From NCBI GenBank assembly GCA_000002445.1, contig CM000208.1, forward strand, positions 2,176,001-2,240,000: a stretch of DNA of 64,000 bases. The letters run 5' to 3'. Position 1 is the stretch's first letter. Every line of letters starts with the position of its first letter. Of this stretch, positions 6,440 through 13,120 are shown one piece after another. The position numbers and the translations under genes are program-made. The DNA comes from Trypanosoma brucei. Its lineage: Eukaryota. The notes under the pieces are model-generated. The model was not told where the DNA came from and ran no database searches. It saw nothing but the letters and a program-made list of their open reading frames with translations.

Positions 6440-7930
6440 CTCCAATTTGAAAAGACAGAGATGTGAAGGGGGAAAAATAAGGAGTGAAGGGAAAAAGTGA
6501 ATAAACAAATGTCAAAAATCACGAAGAACGATGAGAAGTGAAGATGGGAGGTAAGGCTGGGGAAATAAAATAATGTTGAAGGTACGGAAGCTTTTCCCTT
6601 TTATCTATTTATATAAATAAATAAAAGGGGGGAAAAATGGCAAGTTTGGAATATTTCCCCGCGCTCCCACCGTTATCTTTTCTCCGTTTCTCCTTCCCCT
6701 TTGTTTCTCCACCTTTTCCTTTTTTTTTTCTTTTTTTGGTGTTTGAATCCGCCATGTTCCCCCTTCGGTACCGATCTCTGCATTTATGTGCAGAAAATAA
6801 AGGAGAGCTCAGGGAAGAATAGGCGATTTTGATGAATAAGCTTACCAACACAAGCTGAGACAAAACAACAACAACAACAAAAAGGAAAAGGAAAAGGAAA
6901 AGAAATATTGCAGGTAAAATAAATTCAAAGCAAAAAATAAAAAAAAAACAATGCAAATATGCGAAACCAACCCAGAATGAAAGAGAATATGAAGAAGGTT
7001 ATATGCTCATATTAATGAAGGTTGGGGGGATGGGGGGGAAAAAAAAGGAAGGGAACATGATGAACTGATGATATAAATTGTTAATGTATTTATTAGGTTC
7101 CACTCGTTTTCTTTATGTTGTTAAGTTTGAAGGTTGTGCACAAAAGAGCCACTTGAAAGGCATTCAACCATGGCTGAGCAGGACGGAATTGAAGGAAAGT
7201 GAGAGGGAACATGTTTTTGTATTTGTTTTTTCTTCTTTTTGTTTTACTAAAACTGAGGACCCCCCCCCCTCCCCTTGCCAGAAAAAAAAATGAAAAAAAA
7301 AGCAAGGAAGAGCTTGAAAGTGTTGCAAATACCCATATGCCAGAAAGTACTACCGCAGCAAAGAAAAAAAAATGAATGCAACATGACAGAATAAATTTGA
7401 AAAACAAAGGAAGAAGGATGAAATTTGTTTAAAAAGAAGCCGATAACTGTACGAATGAATGATTAAGTTAGTTTGTGCATGTAAGGAGGCAGAAAACGTT
7501 ATGACAGGGGGAAAAAAAGGAGAAGGGGACAAAAAAGGGGGCGGAAACGTGGAGGAATCACGCATTATAGTGACAACAACTCTTCTCCTGTCAAAAAAAA
7601 AAAAAACAAAGCAAAAAAAAAGGAAAAAGGGAAAGGAAAGAAGTAGTAGGGGATTAAAAAAAAAAAAGAAAGAGAAGAAAAAAAATATTGAGTTGGTTAA
7701 GGAGAAGCGTCCCGCTTTTGGGATATTGTACCAGGGACAAATAGCGACGCGGGGTTTGAACAAAATCAAACTAAAGAAGGGGGAAGGATCAGAAATGTAT
7801 GGGGGGTGGGGGACGAGGAGGATGGGAACAGGAAGGGAATATTATTTTAAAGAGGGGCCAGCAGAGAGAGAGAGAGAGAGAGGGTGAAAAAAAAAAAAGG
7901 AAAATGAAGTAAAAAAGACAGAGTAAACAA
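6440..7930 (+). repeat. ~1.5-kb strongly purine-rich (A/G) low-complexity tract on the coding strand
   Basis: Near-continuous G/A composition containing (AAC)n, (AAAAGG)n and (AG)n sub-repeats. It yields only K/E/G-rich pseudo-ORFs. Confidence 0.7.
7863..7882. repeat. (AG)10 microsatellite
   Basis: Uninterrupted AG run at the end of the purine-rich tract. Confidence 0.85.
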
Positions 7931-8312
7931 AGAAATGTTTACAAATATAATATATATATATATTTTATGTAATTAGTAAGGGACCTGCGGAGTCGGTGGG
8001 GTACCGTGTGACCGGGACTTTGCTGCCTTCTTCGTTACGCAAGCTAATACGAAAATACACATTAGGGACGAGTATGTGCGAGTGTGTATACGCACGTGCA
8101 GCTTTGTGTTTCGTCTCTGTTTCTATGAAGTCCGTTAAGCAGGGGAAGTAATTCGCTCATTACTCGCGACATATCCGAGGGGAAGGGCGAAAAGAAAAAA
8201 AAAGAAAAGCAGAAACAAACCCCCGAGAGATGTTAGGAACTTCCCTTTCGCCTTTCGCTCCACACCCCTGCCCCGTTATTTGTTATTTTCCTCTTTTCTC
8301 CATCCACTCATA

Positions 8313-8324
<12 letters not shown>

Positions 8325-8346
<22 letters not shown>

Positions 8347-8350
8347 TATA
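8325..8350. repeat. (TA)13 microsatellite
   Basis: Uninterrupted TA run ~50 bp upstream of direct-repeat unit A. Confidence 0.85.
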
Positions 8351-8397
8351 CTGTACCTCCTGCATTTGTCTTACGCGATGCTTGCAGGCCGCTACTG

Positions 8398-8933
8398 CTT
8401 GACGACCCATGATGCTCCCACAAGGCATATAGAGTGGTTGCCCTTATATTTCCATTCCCGTCACTATCTTCTCTCTTTTTTTCTTTTTTCTTTCCTTTTT
8501 TTCTTTCCCTGTGTTGTGTGTGTGTGTCAAACAGAAAAAGGAAACAAAGCTCCGGCAATGCTTCGTGTTTCTCGATTATCCCTTGCCATTGGCACGTACA
8601 GCCTGTTCATGAAGGAGCAAAAGAATAATCCCGCATTGAAGGGACTCCCCGTAGCAAAGCGGGGTCAGGCAACGGCTAAGTTATATCGAGAGCTTTCTGT
8701 CACTGAGCGTGAGGAATTGGCAAAGCGTGCCAAAGCTGCTCCGTCTGCAACGAGGAAAAAATCGGTACCGAAAACAAAAGGTAAAGAAAAGGTTACAGGA
8801 GGGGGAGGCAAACGTAAGGCATCGGAGTACACCGAATTTGTGAAGTCCAACATATCCAAATACAGTAATCTTCCACAACGGGAGCGCATGACTGCCGTAG
8901 CAAAGCTGTGGAAACAGCAGAAACAGATGCGAA
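8398..8933 (+). repeat. Direct repeat unit A (~536 bp) containing polyY/AG splice region plus the HMG-box CDS copy 1
   Basis: Appears base-for-base identical to 11393..11928 (offset 2995 bp) by visual alignment. Identity begins at CTTGACGACCCATGATGC and ends 5 nt before the stop codon. Confidence 0.85.
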
Positions 8934-8938
8934 AGTAG
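8558..8938 (+). CDS. Small basic HMG-box protein with MLRV mitochondrial-type presequence (kinetoplast-associated protein-like), copy 1 of a duplicated gene
   Basis: The first ATG lies after a polyY tract and an AG (8460-8535). The 126-aa product is Lys-rich. It contains an HMG-box-like segment (YSLFMKEQKNNPALKGLPVAKRGQATAKLYRELSVTEREELAKRAK) and a second partial box (SEYTEFVKSNISKYSNLPQRERMTAVAKLWKQQK). An identical copy starts at 11553. Confidence 0.75.
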   Translation: MLRVSRLSLAIGTYSLFMKEQKNNPALKGLPVAKRGQATAKLYRELSVTEREELAKRAKAAPSATRKKSVPKTKGKEKVTGGGGKRKASEYTEFVKSNISKYSNLPQRERMTAVAKLWKQQKQMRK

Positions 8939-10316
8939 ATCGAATCGCTTCATTATGCCGTGGAAAGCGGGAGTATTTTCATCTTTTTTTGTTTTTTTTT
9001 ACGTGTTGTTCACCTGGCCCGCTGTTGGAGCCAAGACATGAGTGTCTTTTTTGTTGTGGAAAGCGAGACAGAAATATGCTTTTCAAGGAAACTCACGTTC
9101 GCATAGTAGAGTCAATTTTTCAATGTCGAACTGAAAGAGGATACAAAAGATAGAGAAAAGTAGAGAAAGAGAGAGGTAGAGATAAAAAGAAACTCTTGTT
9201 TTGAAGTTTCGAATGGATATATAAGTTTCTATTTATATATCTGCTTATATCTGTCTGATAGAATTATTCATTTTCCCTTTTTTTTTATGTTGGTTGGAAG
9301 TGAGCGGATGAAGCAATATTCTTTTTTCTGTTTGTTTTACACTTCTTCGCTGACCCCTTCTATTTTTGATTCTGTTGCTAATTATAGAGGGTTTCTGTTG
9401 TGGATACTTGTGGGTGAGTGAGTGGGTTTGTATAAGTTTTTACCCTACACCTTTCACTCTACTTAGCGTGTCTTGTCGATTGCATTCTGTTCGGCAGAAT
9501 TCCCCCAACAAAAATATATTCACACCTTTTTTAAAAAAAAAAAATTGGTTCCACATCACACACATGCTGCGCACGGGATGTCAACTTTCCCAACCGACTA
9601 ACTAACTCCTCTCTATTTTTGAGCCTTTTTCCGTACCTTTGCCGTTGCTCTTCTTCTTCTTCATGTTTCTGTTGATTGTGTGCAAGATAGCTTTCACTGG
9701 TGGATTTAGGCAATTTTCAAAGGAATTGCGGTAACGGAAACATCTAACGAAGGCAGTGTGTACAGTCTCATTACTAGCATTGGCGTCTGTTTAAATCAAT
9801 AAATCAATATATATATATATTAAATTGCTTTAGTTTTGGCTCGTGTCTGTGCAGATCAGCCTTGTAGTAAAGGTGGTTACAGCACAGGGTAGGGGTCACT
9901 GAGAGAAGCATTGGAAAAAATTTACAACTGTAGTCATAACTACTTATCCATACAAGCATATACGAACATAGAGCTTTTTGTTTACTTTTTGCGTACCTCC
10001 ATAAGACGCAACCGCAGGGATCAAGTCCAACAAGGAGCGTTGAACGAAGCAACGGGAACTCGTCGGCACCGCCTTGTCGTCGGGTCTTTCTTGCGCTCGT
10101 CAGTGGTGGGAGAAAAAGGAAACATATCTTCACCACCACTTCCACGAGTTCCACTGACAGTTTGGTCACTTGCAACCGGTCGCACTATAGAATTTTTACT
10201 ATCACAGAAATATAGCTGTGGAGCATCGTAGTTGCATAACTGTTTATTTCTTTTTCGTCGTCGCACAAGAACAGCAATTAGGAGGGTGAAGAACACGTGC
10301 TACATTATCTTCTCGC

Positions 10317-11030
10317 ATGTTGCGTTTTACGGTTGCGCTGTGCAGCATTCGCAAAATGGCTTTAAAGCTCTTCCGCGATGAGCAATTACATAGTGCTAAC
10401 CTGCAGGGTCTCTCGATGGCTCAGAAGCGAAAAGTTATTGAAAAGAAGTTTAATCATCTTGGACGGAATGAGATGAGAGTTCTGAGACAGCGGGCTCGTG
10501 AAATGCATGACAATGTGGTGTTAGCGGCGGGTGCGGGTGCGGGTGCGGGTAAGGGTGATTTTCAACCAAGACACCCAAAGATAACCGCATATGAACTGTT
10601 CTTTAAGGAACAGTCATCAAACCCATCCATATCTTCCATTACATCCCCCAGACTGCGCGAGAAGCGAGTTTTTGCCATATTTCAAACATTACCCGAGAAG
10701 ACACGAAAACAATTGGAAGAGAGGGCTGAGCAACTCTCACAAAGCGGTGGGCAACGGAAAATTTCCCCCGCTGTAAAGGTACCAAAACCAAAGAAGGAAA
10801 TACAGACAAAGGCATCGAAGAAGGCGCCCACCAAACGAACTGCAGCTAAGAAAAAGCAGAAACCTTCTACTTACAGGGCGTTTGTAAAGGAACAAATGCC
10901 TCTCTTAAAGCACCTTCCGCCGGCTGAACGCATTAAAACCATCGCAAAGAAGTGGAAGGCACAAAAGGGTGAGAAGAAACCTACCAAACGGACTGGACCA
11001 TCTGAGAACAAGGCAGCAGGCAAAAAATAA
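10317..11030 (+). CDS. Two-HMG-box basic protein with MLRF presequence (237 aa; KAP-like, cf. two-HMG-box kinetoplast proteins such as KAP6)
   Basis: ATG start. There are two HMG-box-like segments (ITAYELFFKEQSSNPS... and STYRAFVKEQMPLLKHLPPAERIKTIAKKWKAQK) and a Lys-rich C-terminus. The gene contains a (GGTGCG)4 hexamer repeat that encodes AGAGAGAG. Confidence 0.75.
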   Translation: MLRFTVALCSIRKMALKLFRDEQLHSANLQGLSMAQKRKVIEKKFNHLGRNEMRVLRQRAREMHDNVVLAAGAGAGAGKGDFQPRHPKITAYELFFKEQSSNPSISSITSPRLREKRVFAIFQTLPEKTRKQLEERAEQLSQSGGQRKISPAVKVPKPKKEIQTKASKKAPTKRTAAKKKQKPSTYRAFVKEQMPLLKHLPPAERIKTIAKKWKAQKGEKKPTKRTGPSENKAAGKK

Positions 11031-11392
11031 CCCAAATGGGTTTTGTCCAGCCTCGGACTTTTTGTTTGTTTTGAACGGCCATTGAAGGCTCATGGGAAAG
11101 AGAGAGTGGAATATCGAAGAATAGCTGCAGCAGTTGGCACAACAAACTCCCGTGTAACTTTATGCACGCTGTTAGAGGGGTGACTCATAGGTAATGCGCA
11201 GAGCATATGCGAATATGTACGGTGGTGCTAGCATGGCTTGTCAAGAAGGAAAATAGGACCACCGCCACTGTACATTTGTCACATTCAAAATATGTTGCCA
11301 TTCTCATTAAATCGAAGTTGTTAAAACTTTTGTGCTGGTGGAAGAATTTCAGCAGTATGACTTCTTTCTGCTGCGTGGTTTAGTGTATTTTA

Positions 11393-11928
11393 CTTGACGA
11401 CCCATGATGCTCCCACAAGGCATATAGAGTGGTTGCCCTTATATTTCCATTCCCGTCACTATCTTCTCTCTTTTTTTCTTTTTTCTTTCCTTTTTTTCTT
11501 TCCCTGTGTTGTGTGTGTGTGTCAAACAGAAAAAGGAAACAAAGCTCCGGCAATGCTTCGTGTTTCTCGATTATCCCTTGCCATTGGCACGTACAGCCTG
11601 TTCATGAAGGAGCAAAAGAATAATCCCGCATTGAAGGGACTCCCCGTAGCAAAGCGGGGTCAGGCAACGGCTAAGTTATATCGAGAGCTTTCTGTCACTG
11701 AGCGTGAGGAATTGGCAAAGCGTGCCAAAGCTGCTCCGTCTGCAACGAGGAAAAAATCGGTACCGAAAACAAAAGGTAAAGAAAAGGTTACAGGAGGGGG
11801 AGGCAAACGTAAGGCATCGGAGTACACCGAATTTGTGAAGTCCAACATATCCAAATACAGTAATCTTCCACAACGGGAGCGCATGACTGCCGTAGCAAAG
11901 CTGTGGAAACAGCAGAAACAGATGCGAA
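11393..11928 (+). repeat. Direct repeat unit B (~536 bp), copy of 8398..8933
   Basis: See unit A. Divergence starts at ...GCGAA|AGTAG (copy A) versus ...GCGAA|GTAAG (copy B). Confidence 0.85.
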
Positions 11929-11936
11929 GTAAGTGA
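11553..11936 (+). CDS. Small basic HMG-box protein, copy 2 (identical to copy 1 except the C-terminal ...MRSK vs ...MRK)
   Basis: Lies inside the second ~536-bp direct repeat. The protein is identical to the 8558 copy up to the last 2-3 codons. Confidence 0.75.
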   Translation: MLRVSRLSLAIGTYSLFMKEQKNNPALKGLPVAKRGQATAKLYRELSVTEREELAKRAKAAPSATRKKSVPKTKGKEKVTGGGGKRKASEYTEFVKSNISKYSNLPQRERMTAVAKLWKQQKQMRSK

Positions 11937-12610
11937 TATTCTTCACCTACTGTCACTATGGTGTTGGTCGTTTCCCTAACAATAGAAACTGAGCTTGTCA
12001 CAGCACTTGATACGAAGCGTGTTACAGGTAACTGAGTGTAGTTTCGAACACGTTTACTCGAGTCGGTACGTGGAAGTCGTAAAGTTAGACATTACGTGAA
12101 ATGTTGCAATCCGGCGGTAGCGCTGCCGCAACAGTTTGTTTAATCACCCACAAGCCGAAGGGGTACAGGAACGTGTGAGGGCAAAGAAAATAAAAATAAA
12201 AAAGAGATACATAGAACAAAAAAAACAGATATTCCGGAAGCACGAGCAAAAGCCGAGAGTGGGGCGTACTTAGAACGAAATAGATAGAAACGTGGGTCGC
12301 CACCCCCTTCGCTCCTACTGCATCACTCATATACCTGAAAATACAATCGAAAATGACATGATGCAGCTGTAGCTGCGGTGCATACTATGTTTATTGTTAT
12401 TTTGTACCGCCTTATATATTTGATTCACTTTGTATCACTACTTTTGCCTCATTTGCTTTTCTTCCCCCAACTGTGTAATGGAGGTGCCCACCACCTACAC
12501 ATCCAACCAAGTTAGCAGCAAGGTTATTTGAAGCTATACTCTCCGTTACAAAGTTGATTAAGTAACGCATATTTTTGTTCAGGAAATCCTTTAATAATCG
12601 ATAGGAAGTG

Positions 12611-13120
12611 ATGTTGCGCTTTACACGTTTTGTTGCTGCTGCTGTGAAGAGCGGCGTTGGCAAAAAAGCCGCTAAGACACCACTGCCTGTGGGGAATGCT
12701 GCGAGTGCCAGACGTGGCGCCCGTGTTGATGCCATTCCGTTTAATGACAATGTGTCTGTACCTAAGGTAAATGCCAAAAAGATGGTACCACCTCCAAGTG
12801 TAAGCAACATTGGCAAAGAAAAGGCTGTTTCTTCCATGAAGGCGAGGGGAGGTGCCAAAGTTAATGCGAAACCACTGGCATCCTTAGGAAAGGTTACGAG
12901 TGAGAAGCCAAGTGGCAAGGTAAAGAAGACGCCGTCACCTACGAGGAAACCAACAGAACCTATTACTGTGGTGGAGACATCCTCCGGTAGGAAGGGTGGT
13001 AACAAGGCTGCGTCTTTGGCACCGAAGTTGAAGAAAACTGTGAAGCAAATCCACCGTAAGGTCATGCAAAAAAATGCTGGCCGTAAGCCCAAGAAGGCGA
13101 TGGGTAAGGCGAGTGCTTAA
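12611..13120 (+). CDS. Lys/Ala-rich basic protein with MLRF presequence (169 aa; histone H1-like kinetoplast-associated protein-like, cf. KAP3)
   Basis: The track start at 12608 is GTG and the ATG is at 12611. Composition is K/A/P/S-rich and strongly basic. The N-terminus MLRFTRFVAAAV is presequence-like. The 226-aa antisense ORF 12412..13092 is rejected. Confidence 0.6.
   Translation: MLRFTRFVAAAVKSGVGKKAAKTPLPVGNAASARRGARVDAIPFNDNVSVPKVNAKKMVPPPSVSNIGKEKAVSSMKARGGAKVNAKPLASLGKVTSEKPSGKVKKTPSPTRKPTEPITVVETSSGRKGGNKAASLAPKLKKTVKQIHRKVMQKNAGRKPKKAMGKASA

What the first reader, a model, noticed from the sequence alone, without database searches (positions are those of the whole stretch)
8398..11928. 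Perfect ~536-bp direct repeats duplicate an HMG-box kinetoplast-protein gene around a third paralogue
Two copies of a 126/127-aa HMG-box gene lie 2995 bp apart and are apparently base-identical. Identity runs from ~160 nt upstream of the ATG, including the polypyrimidine tract and AG acceptor, to 5 nt before the stop. The sequence between the copies holds a distinct two-HMG-box paralogue (10317..11030). The downstream 3'UTR-like regions are unrelated: ~1.4 kb after copy 1, ~0.67 kb after copy 2. The last codons also differ (..MRK* vs ..MRSK*). In kinetoplastids mRNA abundance and stage regulation are set largely by 3'UTRs. The arrangement therefore looks like concerted evolution (gene conversion) that keeps the CDS and 5' processing signals identical while allowing differential regulation, or simply dosage. 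A perfect 0.5-kb repeat is also a substrate for recombinational copy-number change, and a classic site for assembly collapse.
Basis: seen in the sequence. Interest (0 to 1): 0.6.

Follow-up and report, generated by a model that had tools for sequence, protein, structure and literature searches.

The report
Known duplicated KAP4 genes flanking KAP7
The perfect 536-bp repeat is real: it is the already described pair of Trypanosoma brucei KAP4 genes (small mitochondrial DNA-packaging proteins) on either side of KAP7, kept alike by gene conversion, so it is a textbook case rather than a discovery.

Summary
Window 8398-8933 and 11393-11928 are 536/536 identical, 2995 bp apart, and their flanks are unrelated. 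The window is T. brucei TREU927 chromosome 10.

The genes are TbKAP4.1 (126 aa), TbKAP7 (237 aa) and TbKAP4.2 (127 aa). Cavalcanti et al. 2009 already described this KAP4a-KAP7-KAP4b order. They proposed one duplication followed by within-species homogenisation through gene conversion.

My additions:
- Perfect identity is specific to this lineage. In T. b. gambiense and T. equiperdum IVM-t1 the copies differ at 5-6 sites, and four copy-specific variants are shared by both genomes. Both window copies carry window-specific states. That requires conversion after these lineages split.
- T. cruzi, T. theileri and T. melophagium have KAP4a-KAP7-KAP4b-KAP4c, and the paralogues cluster by species. T. 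vivax has one KAP4.
- Published RNA-seq maps one trans-splice site inside the repeat and two unrelated 3'UTRs (593 and 412 nt).

Differential regulation of the two copies remains untested. Interest is low.

The parts
8398..8933 (+). Direct repeat, copy 1 (536 nt): 160 nt of 5' flank/5'UTR plus all but the last 2 sense-codon bases of the KAP4.1 CDS
   Evidence: Exact identity to 11393-11928. The boundaries are the same in T. b. gambiense and T. equiperdum IVM-t1.
11393..11928 (+). Direct repeat, copy 2 (536 nt)
8558..8938 (+). TbKAP4.1 CDS, 126 aa (Tb10.6k15.1480 = Tb927.10.8950). It starts with an MLR... sequence of the kind described for KAP mitochondrial presequences. It has one full HMG-box-like domain, a Lys-rich linker and a two-helix half box.
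   Evidence: ORF. Exact protein match RHW68807.1, and the core of EAN78291/XP_823119. Named TbKap4.1 in PMC2700280 Additional file 1. Old/new gene ID pair from Archer 2011 Table S1. Fold.
8378..8557 (+). Spurious N-terminal extension of the deposited 186-aa gene model. It reads through the polypyrimidine tract.
   Evidence: P0014 (186 aa) equals the window ORF from the ATG at 8378. Kolev 2010 Table S1 lists this ORF as having a misannotated start, with the splice-acceptor site inside it at 2184535 = window 8535. Cavalcanti 2009 also flagged it. The ATG at 8378 lies outside the repeat and has no counterpart in copy 2.
8467..8534 (+). Polypyrimidine tract (8467-8510), (TG)n, and the AG trans-splice acceptor (8533-8534). 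The mRNA 5' end is at 8535, giving a 23-nt 5'UTR. The identical element in copy 2 is at 11462-11529.
   Evidence: Sequence. Experimentally mapped splice-acceptor site 2184535.
8939..9531 (+). KAP4.1 3'UTR, 593 nt, unique sequence
   Evidence: Kolev 2010 Table S13: predominant poly(A) site 2185531, 3'UTR 593 nt. Coordinate offset is 2,176,000. No similarity to the copy-2 3' flank.
10317..11030 (+). TbKAP7 CDS, 237 aa. It is a diverged KAP4 paralogue: an extra N-terminal HMG-like box plus a KAP4-like module.
   Evidence: Exact match EAN78292/XP_823120, named TbKap7. Residues 89-213 align with the whole of KAP4 at about 30% identity. Residues 1-65 align with KAP4 box 1 (hhalign probability 93%, E 4e-7).
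11553..11936 (+). TbKAP4.2 CDS, 127 aa (Tb10.6k15.1460; Tb927.10.8970 by inference from gene order)
   Evidence: Exact match EAN78293. XP_823121 is TbKap4.2. Poly(A) site table.
11937..12348 (+). KAP4.2 3'UTR, 412 nt, unique sequence. It contains one cycling-element-like octamer, AATAGAAA, at 11981-11988.
   Evidence: Kolev 2010 Table S13: predominant poly(A) site 2188348, 3'UTR 412 nt. Octamer found; it is not statistically enriched.
12611..13120 (+). Fourth gene of the cluster: a 169-aa basic protein with an MLRFTRF... N-terminus (Tb10.6k15.1450 = Tb927.10.8980). It is not part of the repeat.
   Evidence: Exact match EAN78294. Tb927.10.8980 is counted among kDNA-associated proteins and is lost from flagellar extracts on TAC102, TbmtHMG44 or TbKAP68 knock-down, PMC10374059. 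Positional orthologues.

Best explanation
The window is T. brucei TREU927 chromosome 10. The repeat is the two-copy KAP4 gene (TbKAP4.1 and TbKAP4.2) on either side of the diverged paralogue KAP7, all inside one polycistronic unit.

KAP4 is a nuclear-encoded, very basic 14-kDa protein. It starts with an MLR... sequence of the kind described for KAP mitochondrial presequences. It has one complete HMG-box-like domain, a lysine-rich linker and a two-helix half box. By homology to Crithidia, T. cruzi and Angomonas KAP4, and to TbKAP6, it binds and compacts kinetoplast DNA.

The duplication is old. Non-reciprocal recombination (gene conversion) between the two copies repeatedly homogenises a fixed 536-bp tract. 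That tract runs from 160 nt upstream of the ATG, through the polypyrimidine tract, splice acceptor and 5'UTR, to the last sense codons.

In the TREU927/OVI lineage the last conversion covered the whole tract and is recent enough that no difference has accumulated since. Other T. brucei lineages retain about 1% divergence between the copies.

Both copies are expressed. They yield mRNAs with the same 5'UTR and essentially the same protein, but with unrelated 3'UTRs of 593 and 412 nt. The minimal functional consequence is doubled dosage of a kDNA-packaging protein whose mRNA peaks in late G1. Whether the two 3'UTRs add differential control is not known.

Shown here or in cited data: the repeat, gene identity, fold, synteny, the conversion signature, the mapped splice and poly(A) sites, and the late-G1 peak. 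Inferred: kDNA binding by TbKAP4, dosage as the selective benefit, and the mechanism (mitotic or meiotic) of conversion.
For: - Repeat: exact 536-nt pair with unrelated flanks.
- Gene identity: exact protein matches to TREU927 entries. XP_823119, XP_823120 and XP_823121 are TbKap4.1, TbKap7 and TbKap4.2, with gene conversion already proposed.
- Coordinate check against Kolev 2010: ORF 2184378-2184938, splice-acceptor site 2184535, poly(A) sites 2185531 and 2188348. All fit the window with an offset of 2,176,000.
- Conversion signature: gambiense and IVM-t1 copies differ at 5-6 sites. Four copy-specific states are shared by both genomes (8401, 8457, 8459, 8761). Both window copies share window-specific states: 8788 A against G in all four other copies, and a differently structured polypyrimidine tract.
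- All three CDS differences among T. brucei copies are synonymous third-position changes.
- Orthologous flanks differ by about 3% between the window and those genomes, while the window paralogues differ by 0%.
- Old duplication: T. cruzi, T. melophagium and T. theileri have KAP4a-KAP7-KAP4b-KAP4c in the same gene neighbourhood. Their paralogues are 82-96% identical within a species and no more than 71.5% identical between subgenera, so they cluster by species.
- KAP4 is 36% identical over its full length to a 210-aa T. congolense 'kinetoplast DNA-associated protein', probably KAP6.
- Expression: Tb927.10.8950 has both unique and multi-mapping reads and peaks in late G1 with amplitude 1.63 log2. 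The two genes together give 10.9 RNAs per cell.
- KAP4 was detected by mass spectrometry in flagellum/TAC extracts.
Against: - T. vivax has only one KAP4, upstream of KAP7. So a single ancestral duplication requires a loss in T. vivax, and independent duplications in Salivaria and Stercoraria cannot be strictly excluded.
- The polarity of the variable sites could not be set, because no close outgroup DNA was available. The direction and number of conversion events are therefore unknown.
- Perfect identity in the reference could not be checked against raw reads.
- No Pfam HMG_box hit reaches threshold for the T. brucei protein.
- No direct functional data on TbKAP4 itself were found.
Confidence: 0.9

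Rival explanations
1. Assembly or consensus artefact. The locus truly has two diverged copies (or one copy), and the perfect identity or the duplication was produced by reads from both copies being merged during assembly or polishing of the reference.
For: Repeats of this size do get mis-assembled. T. equiperdum OVI shows a collapsed single chimeric copy, with the 2.5-kb middle left as an orphan contig whose ends overlap the repeat by 32 nt. No raw reads could be examined here.
Against: The two-copy KAP4-KAP7-KAP4 arrangement, with the same boundaries, is present in independent assemblies: T. b. gambiense DAL972 and T. equiperdum IVM-t1 (MiSeq plus PacBio hybrid). Syntenic arrangements occur in three other species. 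Each copy has its own unique flanks and its own experimentally mapped poly(A) site. The window haplotype, including its private states, recurs 536/536 in the independent OVI strain. The orphan OVI contig proves that both junctions exist there too.
Confidence: 0.04
2. Recent duplication without conversion. KAP4 was copied to its second position only recently in T. brucei, and the copies are identical simply because there has been no time to diverge.
For: There is zero divergence in the window. T. vivax has only one KAP4.
Against: The same arrangement and the same repeat boundaries occur in gambiense and IVM-t1, with four fixed copy-specific differences shared by both. The copies therefore pre-date the split of these haplotypes and had already diverged. 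The window copies share derived or private states against all four of those copies, which needs transfer between copies. KAP4 genes flank KAP7 in T. cruzi, T. theileri and T. melophagium as well. The flanks show no trace of co-duplicated sequence.
Confidence: 0.03
3. Purifying selection alone. Strong constraint on a DNA-binding protein keeps the two copies identical without any recombination.
For: The protein is 100% conserved across all T. brucei copies, and all CDS differences are synonymous.
Against: Identity in the window also covers all synonymous sites and 160 nt of non-coding 5' sequence. That stretch includes a length-variable polypyrimidine/(TG)n tract which differs between strains yet is the same in both copies within the window. 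Orthologous non-coding flanks differ by about 3% between the same genomes. Across species the paralogues cluster by species at the nucleotide level.
Confidence: 0.03

Closest known systems
TbKAP4.1 / TbKAP7 / TbKAP4.2 locus as described by Cavalcanti et al. 2009 (BMC Microbiol 9:120, Additional file 1; PMC2700280)
   Same: It is the same locus and the same genes: XP_823119, XP_823120 and XP_823121 (exact sequence matches). That paper already states that T. brucei has two KAP4 copies interspersed by KAP7, that paralogues cluster by species, and that the parsimonious explanation is one duplication followed by intra-species homogenisation by gene conversion. It also flags the wrong start codon of TbKAP4a.
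   Different: That paper worked at the protein and phylogeny level in two Trypanosoma species. It gives no nucleotide boundaries and no comparison among T. brucei lineages. New here: the 536-bp tract limits, identity that is perfect only in the TREU927/OVI lineage, the single-copy state in T. vivax, and the three-copy state in T. theileri and T. melophagium.
T. cruzi TcKAP4a-TcKAP7-TcKAP4b-TcKAP4c cluster
   Same: Same gene neighbourhood (a roughly 700-aa gene, a roughly 410-aa gene, KAP4, KAP7, KAP4..., a basic 170-190-aa gene, a roughly 430-aa gene). Homology between copies covers the CDS and sometimes the proximal 5' flank. The C-terminal tails and 3' flanks differ.
   Different: T. cruzi has three copies rather than two. 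They are 89-91.5% identical rather than 100%. The adjacent b/c pair shares about 260 nt upstream, while a/b share only about 20 nt upstream.
TbKAP6 (Tb927.10.8890), a mitochondrial two-HMG-box kDNA protein essential for minicircle release (Wang et al. 2014, as summarised in PMC10719067 and PMC7463775)
   Same: It lies about six genes upstream on the same chromosome and has an MLR... N-terminus and a basic composition. KAP4 aligns over its full length (36% identity) with a 210-aa T. congolense 'kinetoplast DNA-associated protein' that is probably KAP6. It is the likely functional analogue in kDNA binding.
   Different: KAP6 has two complete HMG boxes and a C-terminal tail. KAP4's second box stops after helix 2. 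KAP6 is single-copy. Its essentiality is shown, whereas TbKAP4's is not.
Mitochondrial HMG-box packaging proteins TFAM and Abf2p
   Same: Tandem HMG-box architecture with a basic linker, and a mitochondrial DNA-packaging role. TFAM is the best sequence-profile hit in the PDB. TFAM and Abf2p are among the top structural hits.
Concerted evolution of T. brucei tandem gene arrays (Jackson 2007, BMC Evol Biol 7:54; PMC1855330)
   Same: Duplicates in a polycistronic genome evolve in concert through gene conversion. Conversion tracts can span start or stop codons and UTRs. Structural heterogeneity limits homogenisation.
   Different: This is not a head-to-tail array. The two copies are separated by a different gene and share no intergenic sequence. 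Jackson observed that physically separated duplicates with unique UTRs tend to escape homogenisation. Here homogenisation persists across a 2.5-kb unrelated spacer.

Membership tests
KAP4 (kinetoplast-associated protein 4) | Orthology to the genes named KAP4 in the trypanosomatid KAP classification | tested here: met
   The window proteins are exact matches to EAN78291 (core)/XP_823119 and EAN78293. XP_823119 and XP_823121 are listed as TbKap4.1 and TbKap4.2 in PMC2700280 Additional file 1. A T. vivax homologue is named 'Kinetoplast-associated protein 4' by its source.
KAP4 (kinetoplast-associated protein 4) | Short (about 9 aa) N-terminal mitochondrial presequence beginning MLR..., small size, very basic composition | tested here: met
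   The sequence starts MLRVSRLSL. The 126/127-aa protein is Lys/Arg-rich. Published values for TbKap4.2 are 14.3 kDa and pI 10.8. Cleavage itself was not tested.
KAP4 (kinetoplast-associated protein 4) | Conserved position next to KAP7 | tested here: met
   KAP7 lies between the copies in the window. The same neighbourhood occurs in T. cruzi, T. vivax, T. melophagium and T. theileri.
KAP4 (kinetoplast-associated protein 4) | Localisation to the kinetoplast and binding or condensation of kDNA | not testable with these tools
   Only indirect evidence: KAP4 was detected by mass spectrometry in T. brucei flagellum/TAC extracts and depends on TAC102. Localisation is shown in T. cruzi and Angomonas.
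HMG-box superfamily | Significant match to a curated HMG-box sequence model (Pfam HMG_box / HMG_box_2 above the gathering score) | tested here: not met
   There is no HMG-box family at E <= 1 for the T. brucei proteins. T. cruzi KAP4 scores 18.4 bits on HMG_box_2 (cut-off 22.4). T. melophagium KAP4 scores 27.9 bits on the HMG-like YABBY C-terminal model (cut-off 28.6). The family profile against PDB sequences gives TFAM as best hit at E 0.1.
HMG-box superfamily | Three-helix L-shaped fold of about 55-75 residues, structurally superimposable on solved HMG boxes | tested here: met
Concerted evolution by gene conversion | Lineage-specific variants shared by the paralogues of one genome but absent from both paralogues of related genomes | tested here: met
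   Position 8788 is A in both window copies and G in all four gambiense and IVM-t1 copies. The window-type polypyrimidine tract is in both window copies, and a different type is in the other four.
Concerted evolution by gene conversion | The duplication is demonstrably older than the last homogenisation | tested here: met
   Four copy-specific differences are shared by gambiense and IVM-t1. The repeat boundaries are identical in all T. brucei genomes. KAP4 genes flank KAP7 in three stercorarian species, with species-wise clustering of paralogues. Caveat: T. vivax has a single KAP4.
Concerted evolution by gene conversion | A sharp tract boundary with unrelated flanking sequence | tested here: met
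   Identity drops from 100% to background at both ends. No flank homology is found with a word size of 7.
Head-to-tail tandem gene array (dosage array in the sense of Jackson 2007) | Repeat unit contains the CDS plus a shared intergenic spacer, with copies directly adjacent | tested here: not met
   The copies are separated by 2459 bp of unrelated sequence that holds KAP7. The 3' flanks are unrelated.

The most novel reading that the evidence does not exclude
The two KAP4 copies may be sub-functionalised at the mRNA level. Selection would keep the conversion tract ending just before the stop codon, so that one identical kDNA-packaging protein is made from two mRNAs with unrelated 3'UTRs (593 and 412 nt). 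These UTRs could confer different cell-cycle or life-cycle control. Only the copy-2 3'UTR carries a canonical cycling-element octamer (AATAGAAA at 11981-11988). In one published procyclic data set only copy 1 passed the read threshold, and it showed a late-G1 peak.
Probability: 0.15. Interest if true: 0.35.

Novelty: already known. Interest (0 to 1): 0.15.

Why it matters
It matters little beyond housekeeping. The locus, its gene names and the gene-conversion explanation were published in 2009.

The practical value is threefold:
- The deposited 186-aa model of copy 1 is wrong. The true product is 126 aa.
- The repeat is a proven trap for short-read assembly and for read mapping. Expression, RNAi and CRISPR reagents aimed at the CDS hit both genes, and only the 3'UTRs distinguish them.
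- Perfect identity in TREU927/OVI against about 1% divergence in gambiense and IVM-t1 gives a small, datable example of ongoing conversion across a 2.5-kb spacer in T. brucei.

If the two 3'UTRs proved to regulate the copies differently, it would be a neat but minor case of regulatory sub-functionalisation in an organism that lacks promoter-level control.

Tried and rejected
- Pfam scan of the three window proteins for HMG boxes: nothing at E <= 1. I therefore turned to a profile-versus-PDB search, structure prediction and fold search.
- First coordinates for the CDS were off by one and were corrected.
- Look-up of the 186-aa TREU927 model in the contig index: not on record. The window's source was instead fixed by exact protein matches and by the Kolev 2010 coordinates.
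- The TbKAP6 paper (PMC4135736) is not held. The Siegel 2010 supplements are not held. The PMC10374059 supplements contain no KAP4 gene IDs.
- Residual homology in the flanks, which would have revealed a larger original duplication unit: none found.
- Cycling-element scan with MATAGAAR: 12 hits in the window against 7.3 expected, and 4 of 100 shuffles reached 12. Only one plus-strand hit lies in the locus, so it is not evidence.
- tblastn with the 169-aa protein found no hit in other species at 1e-3. Relaxed BLASTP of the positional orthologues shows only weak similarity, E about 1e-5.
- No close outgroup DNA was available to polarise the variable sites. For T. congolense, only protein sequences are held.
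- Rejected as explanations: recent duplication, selection alone, and assembly artefact (see the rival explanations).


Full report
OBSERVATION

The repeat is real and exactly as described. Extending base by base from the reported start gives 536 identical bases, window 8398-8933 = 11393-11928, with spacing 2995. The neighbouring bases differ on both sides. The repeat finder and BLASTN against the whole window find only these two copies. Sensitive BLASTN of the flanks finds nothing (best E 0.1).

The coding sequences are 8558-8938 (126 aa...QMRK*) and 11553-11936 (127 aa...QMRSK*). The gene between them is 10317-11030 (237 aa). Identity starts 160 nt before the ATG. It includes a 44-nt pure pyrimidine run (8467-8510), a (TG)n stretch and the first AG after them (8533-8534).

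WHAT IT IS

The translated products are exact matches to T. brucei entries annotated 'kinetoplast DNA-associated protein, putative':
- EAN78293 for the 127-aa copy.
- RHW68807 for the 126-aa copy.
- EAN78291/XP_823119 for a 186-aa model that adds 60 residues upstream of copy 1.
- EAN78292/XP_823120 for the middle gene.
- EAN78294/XP_823122 for a fourth, 169-aa basic ORF at 12611-13120.

Coordinates published for TREU927 chromosome 10 (GeneDB v4) fit the window with a constant offset of 2,176,000:
- ORF Tb10.6k15.1480 at 2184378-2184938 corresponds to window 8378-8938.
- Its mapped splice-acceptor site, 2184535, corresponds to window 8535, the base right after the AG I had picked from the sequence.
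- Its predominant poly(A) site, 2185531, gives a 593-nt 3'UTR.
- For Tb10.6k15.1460 the poly(A) site, 2188348, gives a 412-nt 3'UTR. This measures exactly from the copy-2 stop at window 11936.

Kolev et al. list the 186-aa ORF among models with a misannotated start codon. So the real product of copy 1 is the 126-aa protein.

ALREADY DESCRIBED

Cavalcanti et al. 2009 (PMC2700280, Additional file 1) name XP_823119 TbKap4.1, XP_823120 TbKap7 and XP_823121 TbKap4.2. They state that T. brucei has two KAP4 copies and T. cruzi three, and that the two common copies are interspersed by KAP7. They note that KAP4 paralogues cluster species by species. [quoted passage not shown] They also flag the start-codon error in TbKAP4a.

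Jackson 2007 (PMC1855330) gives the general picture of concerted evolution by gene conversion in T. brucei duplicated genes.

TEST OF GENE CONVERSION WITHIN T. BRUCEI

I fetched the locus from T. equiperdum IVM-t1 (L001), T. equiperdum OVI (L002) and T. b. gambiense DAL972 (L003). IVM-t1 and gambiense have the same KAP4-KAP7-KAP4 arrangement and the same repeat boundaries. Their copies are not identical: 6 mismatches in IVM-t1, and 5 mismatches plus a TGTG indel in gambiense.

Four differences are copy-specific and shared by both genomes (window positions 8401, 8457, 8459 and 8761). So the two copies had already diverged before these haplotypes separated, and they have not been converted across those sites since.

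The two window copies are identical to each other and share states found in none of the other four copies. Position 8788 is A against G. The polypyrimidine tract differs by several substitutions or indels. Whatever the polarity of these changes, a state that is private to a lineage yet present in both paralogues needs transfer between the copies after the lineages split.

Orthologous non-coding flanks differ by about 3% between the window and those genomes. Zero paralogue divergence in the window is therefore recent on that scale. All three coding differences among T. brucei copies are synonymous third-position changes. Purifying selection holds the protein, but it cannot explain identity at synonymous sites or in the 160-nt non-coding part.

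DEEPER HISTORY

T. cruzi (L004), T. melophagium (L007) and T. theileri (L008) all show the same order. It runs: a gene of about 700 aa, a gene of about 410 aa, KAP4a, KAP7, KAP4b, KAP4c, a basic 170-192-aa gene, a gene of about 430 aa, and a gene of more than 1500 aa.

On a codon alignment the paralogues are 89-91.5% identical within T. cruzi, about 90% within T. melophagium and 88-96% within T. theileri. Identity between subgenera is no more than 71.5%, and the neighbour-joining tree groups the copies by species. Only T. theileri b and T. melophagium b keep a hint of orthology (86.5%).

In every species the homology covers the CDS, sometimes with proximal 5' sequence. The C-terminal tails and 3' flanks differ.

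T. vivax (L005, L006) has one KAP4 upstream of KAP7 and no second copy. So either T. vivax lost a copy, or the duplications in Salivaria and Stercoraria were independent. This does not affect the evidence for conversion within T. brucei.

ASSEMBLY COLLAPSE

In the short-read T. equiperdum OVI assembly the scaffold carries a single chimeric copy, with the 5' flank of copy 1 and the 3' flank of copy 2. The 2.5-kb middle segment sits on a separate 2555-bp contig. That contig spans window 8902-11424, so it runs 32 nt into the repeat at each end. This is a textbook repeat collapse.

It also shows that both junctions exist in OVI. The OVI repeat is 536/536 identical to the window's, so the window haplotype is seen in an independent strain. 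IVM-t1 is a MiSeq plus low-coverage PacBio hybrid assembly.

THE PROTEIN

Pfam gives no HMG-box hit for the T. brucei proteins. The T. cruzi orthologue scores 18.4 bits on HMG_box_2 over residues 6-61 (cut-off 22.4). A T. melophagium copy scores 27.9 bits on the HMG-like YABBY C-terminal model over residues 66-119 (cut-off 28.6). A nine-sequence KAP4 profile finds TFAM as its best PDB sequence match at E 0.1.

The AlphaFold model has mean pLDDT 73.7. It shows three helices at 13-20, 32-44 and 48-60, then a disordered Lys-rich linker at 65-85, then two helices at 90-102 and 107-126.

KAP4 aligns end to end (36% identity) with a 210-aa T. congolense protein that is probably KAP6. In that protein the second box is complete. 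KAP6 is described as a two-HMG-box protein.

KAP7 residues 89-213 align with the whole of KAP4 at about 30% identity. KAP7 residues 1-65 are homologous to KAP4 box 1 (hhalign probability 93%, E 4e-7). KAP7 is therefore a KAP4 relative with an extra N-terminal box.

EXPRESSION

Both genes yield processed mRNAs with distinct 3'UTRs. Together they give about 10.9 RNAs per procyclic cell (Kolev Table S6).

In Archer et al. 2011 Table S1, Tb927.10.8950 has unique reads of 270/440/203/152 and multi-mapping reads of 124/405/294/168 in early G1, late G1, S and G2/M. It peaks in late G1 with an amplitude of 1.63 log2. The neighbouring Tb927.10.8980 does the same. Tb927.10.8970 is not listed in a table restricted to models with more than 300 reads.

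This fits supply of kDNA-packaging proteins ahead of kDNA replication. It hints at unequal abundance of the two mRNAs, but it is not a test of differential regulation. One cycling-element-like octamer lies in the copy-2 3'UTR (11981-11988) and there is none on the sense strand of the copy-1 3'UTR. The motif is not enriched in the window.

VERDICT

The finding is already in the literature.

The increments from this work are:
- The exact tract limits.
- The lineage-specific nature of the perfect identity.
- The extra species.
- The demonstrated assembly collapse.
- The link to the mapped transcript ends.

Noticed in passing
window 12611-13120 (Tb927.10.8980); L003 10844-13330; L005 11294-16375: The 169-aa basic gene just downstream of KAP4.2 is itself copy-number variable. 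T. b. gambiense has two copies (a 1176-bp repeat, 98.98% identical). T. vivax has at least four tandem copies of the positional orthologue (179 aa, period 1485 bp, 99.2-99.7% identical). The protein starts MLRFTRF... like a KAP. It is reported as a kDNA/TAC-interface protein that is lost on TAC102, TbmtHMG44 or TbKAP68 knock-down. Its mRNA peaks in late G1.
   Followed up: partly
L004 9818-10396, L007 12419-12931, L008 9881-10393: The stercorarian positional orthologues of the 169-aa gene carry an HMG-like 'Y(A/V)RFY...KLWRAT' motif that is not evident in the T. brucei protein. Sequence similarity between the salivarian and stercorarian versions is very weak (E about 1e-5), which suggests a fast-evolving KAP-like gene. 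Pfam finds nothing in the T. melophagium protein.
   Followed up: partly
window about 10527-10550 (inside the KAP7 CDS): A GCGGGT hexanucleotide repeat encodes (AG)n. The window and T. equiperdum OVI have a 237-aa KAP7. Gambiense, IVM-t1 and several Logan read-set assemblies have a 235-aa form with one unit fewer. This is an in-frame microsatellite polymorphism.
   Followed up: no
window 8378-8557: The deposited 186-aa model of copy 1 (XP_823119, and the gambiense equivalent) starts at an ATG outside the repeat and translates the polypyrimidine tract. The mapped splice site at 8535 shows that it is an annotation error.
   Followed up: yes
window 8324-8351 and 9806-9820: (TA)n microsatellites. 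The first lies 47 nt upstream of repeat copy 1. The region 7400-8397 is the most indel-rich part of the locus between strains (93-95% identity with 9-13 gaps).
   Followed up: no
window 10111-10124: A 14-nt exact match (AGAAAAAGGAAACA) to the start of the KAP4 5'UTR lies about 190 nt upstream of the KAP7 ATG. It could be a relic of shared ancestry of the KAP7 and KAP4 splice-acceptor regions, or it could be chance (roughly 0.1 expected in this 7-kb region).
   Followed up: no
window 11981-11988: The cycling-sequence-like octamer AATAGAAA (consensus (C/A)AUAGAA(G/A)) occurs in the KAP4.2 3'UTR only. It is not statistically enriched in the window: 12 hits against 7.3 expected.
   Followed up: partly
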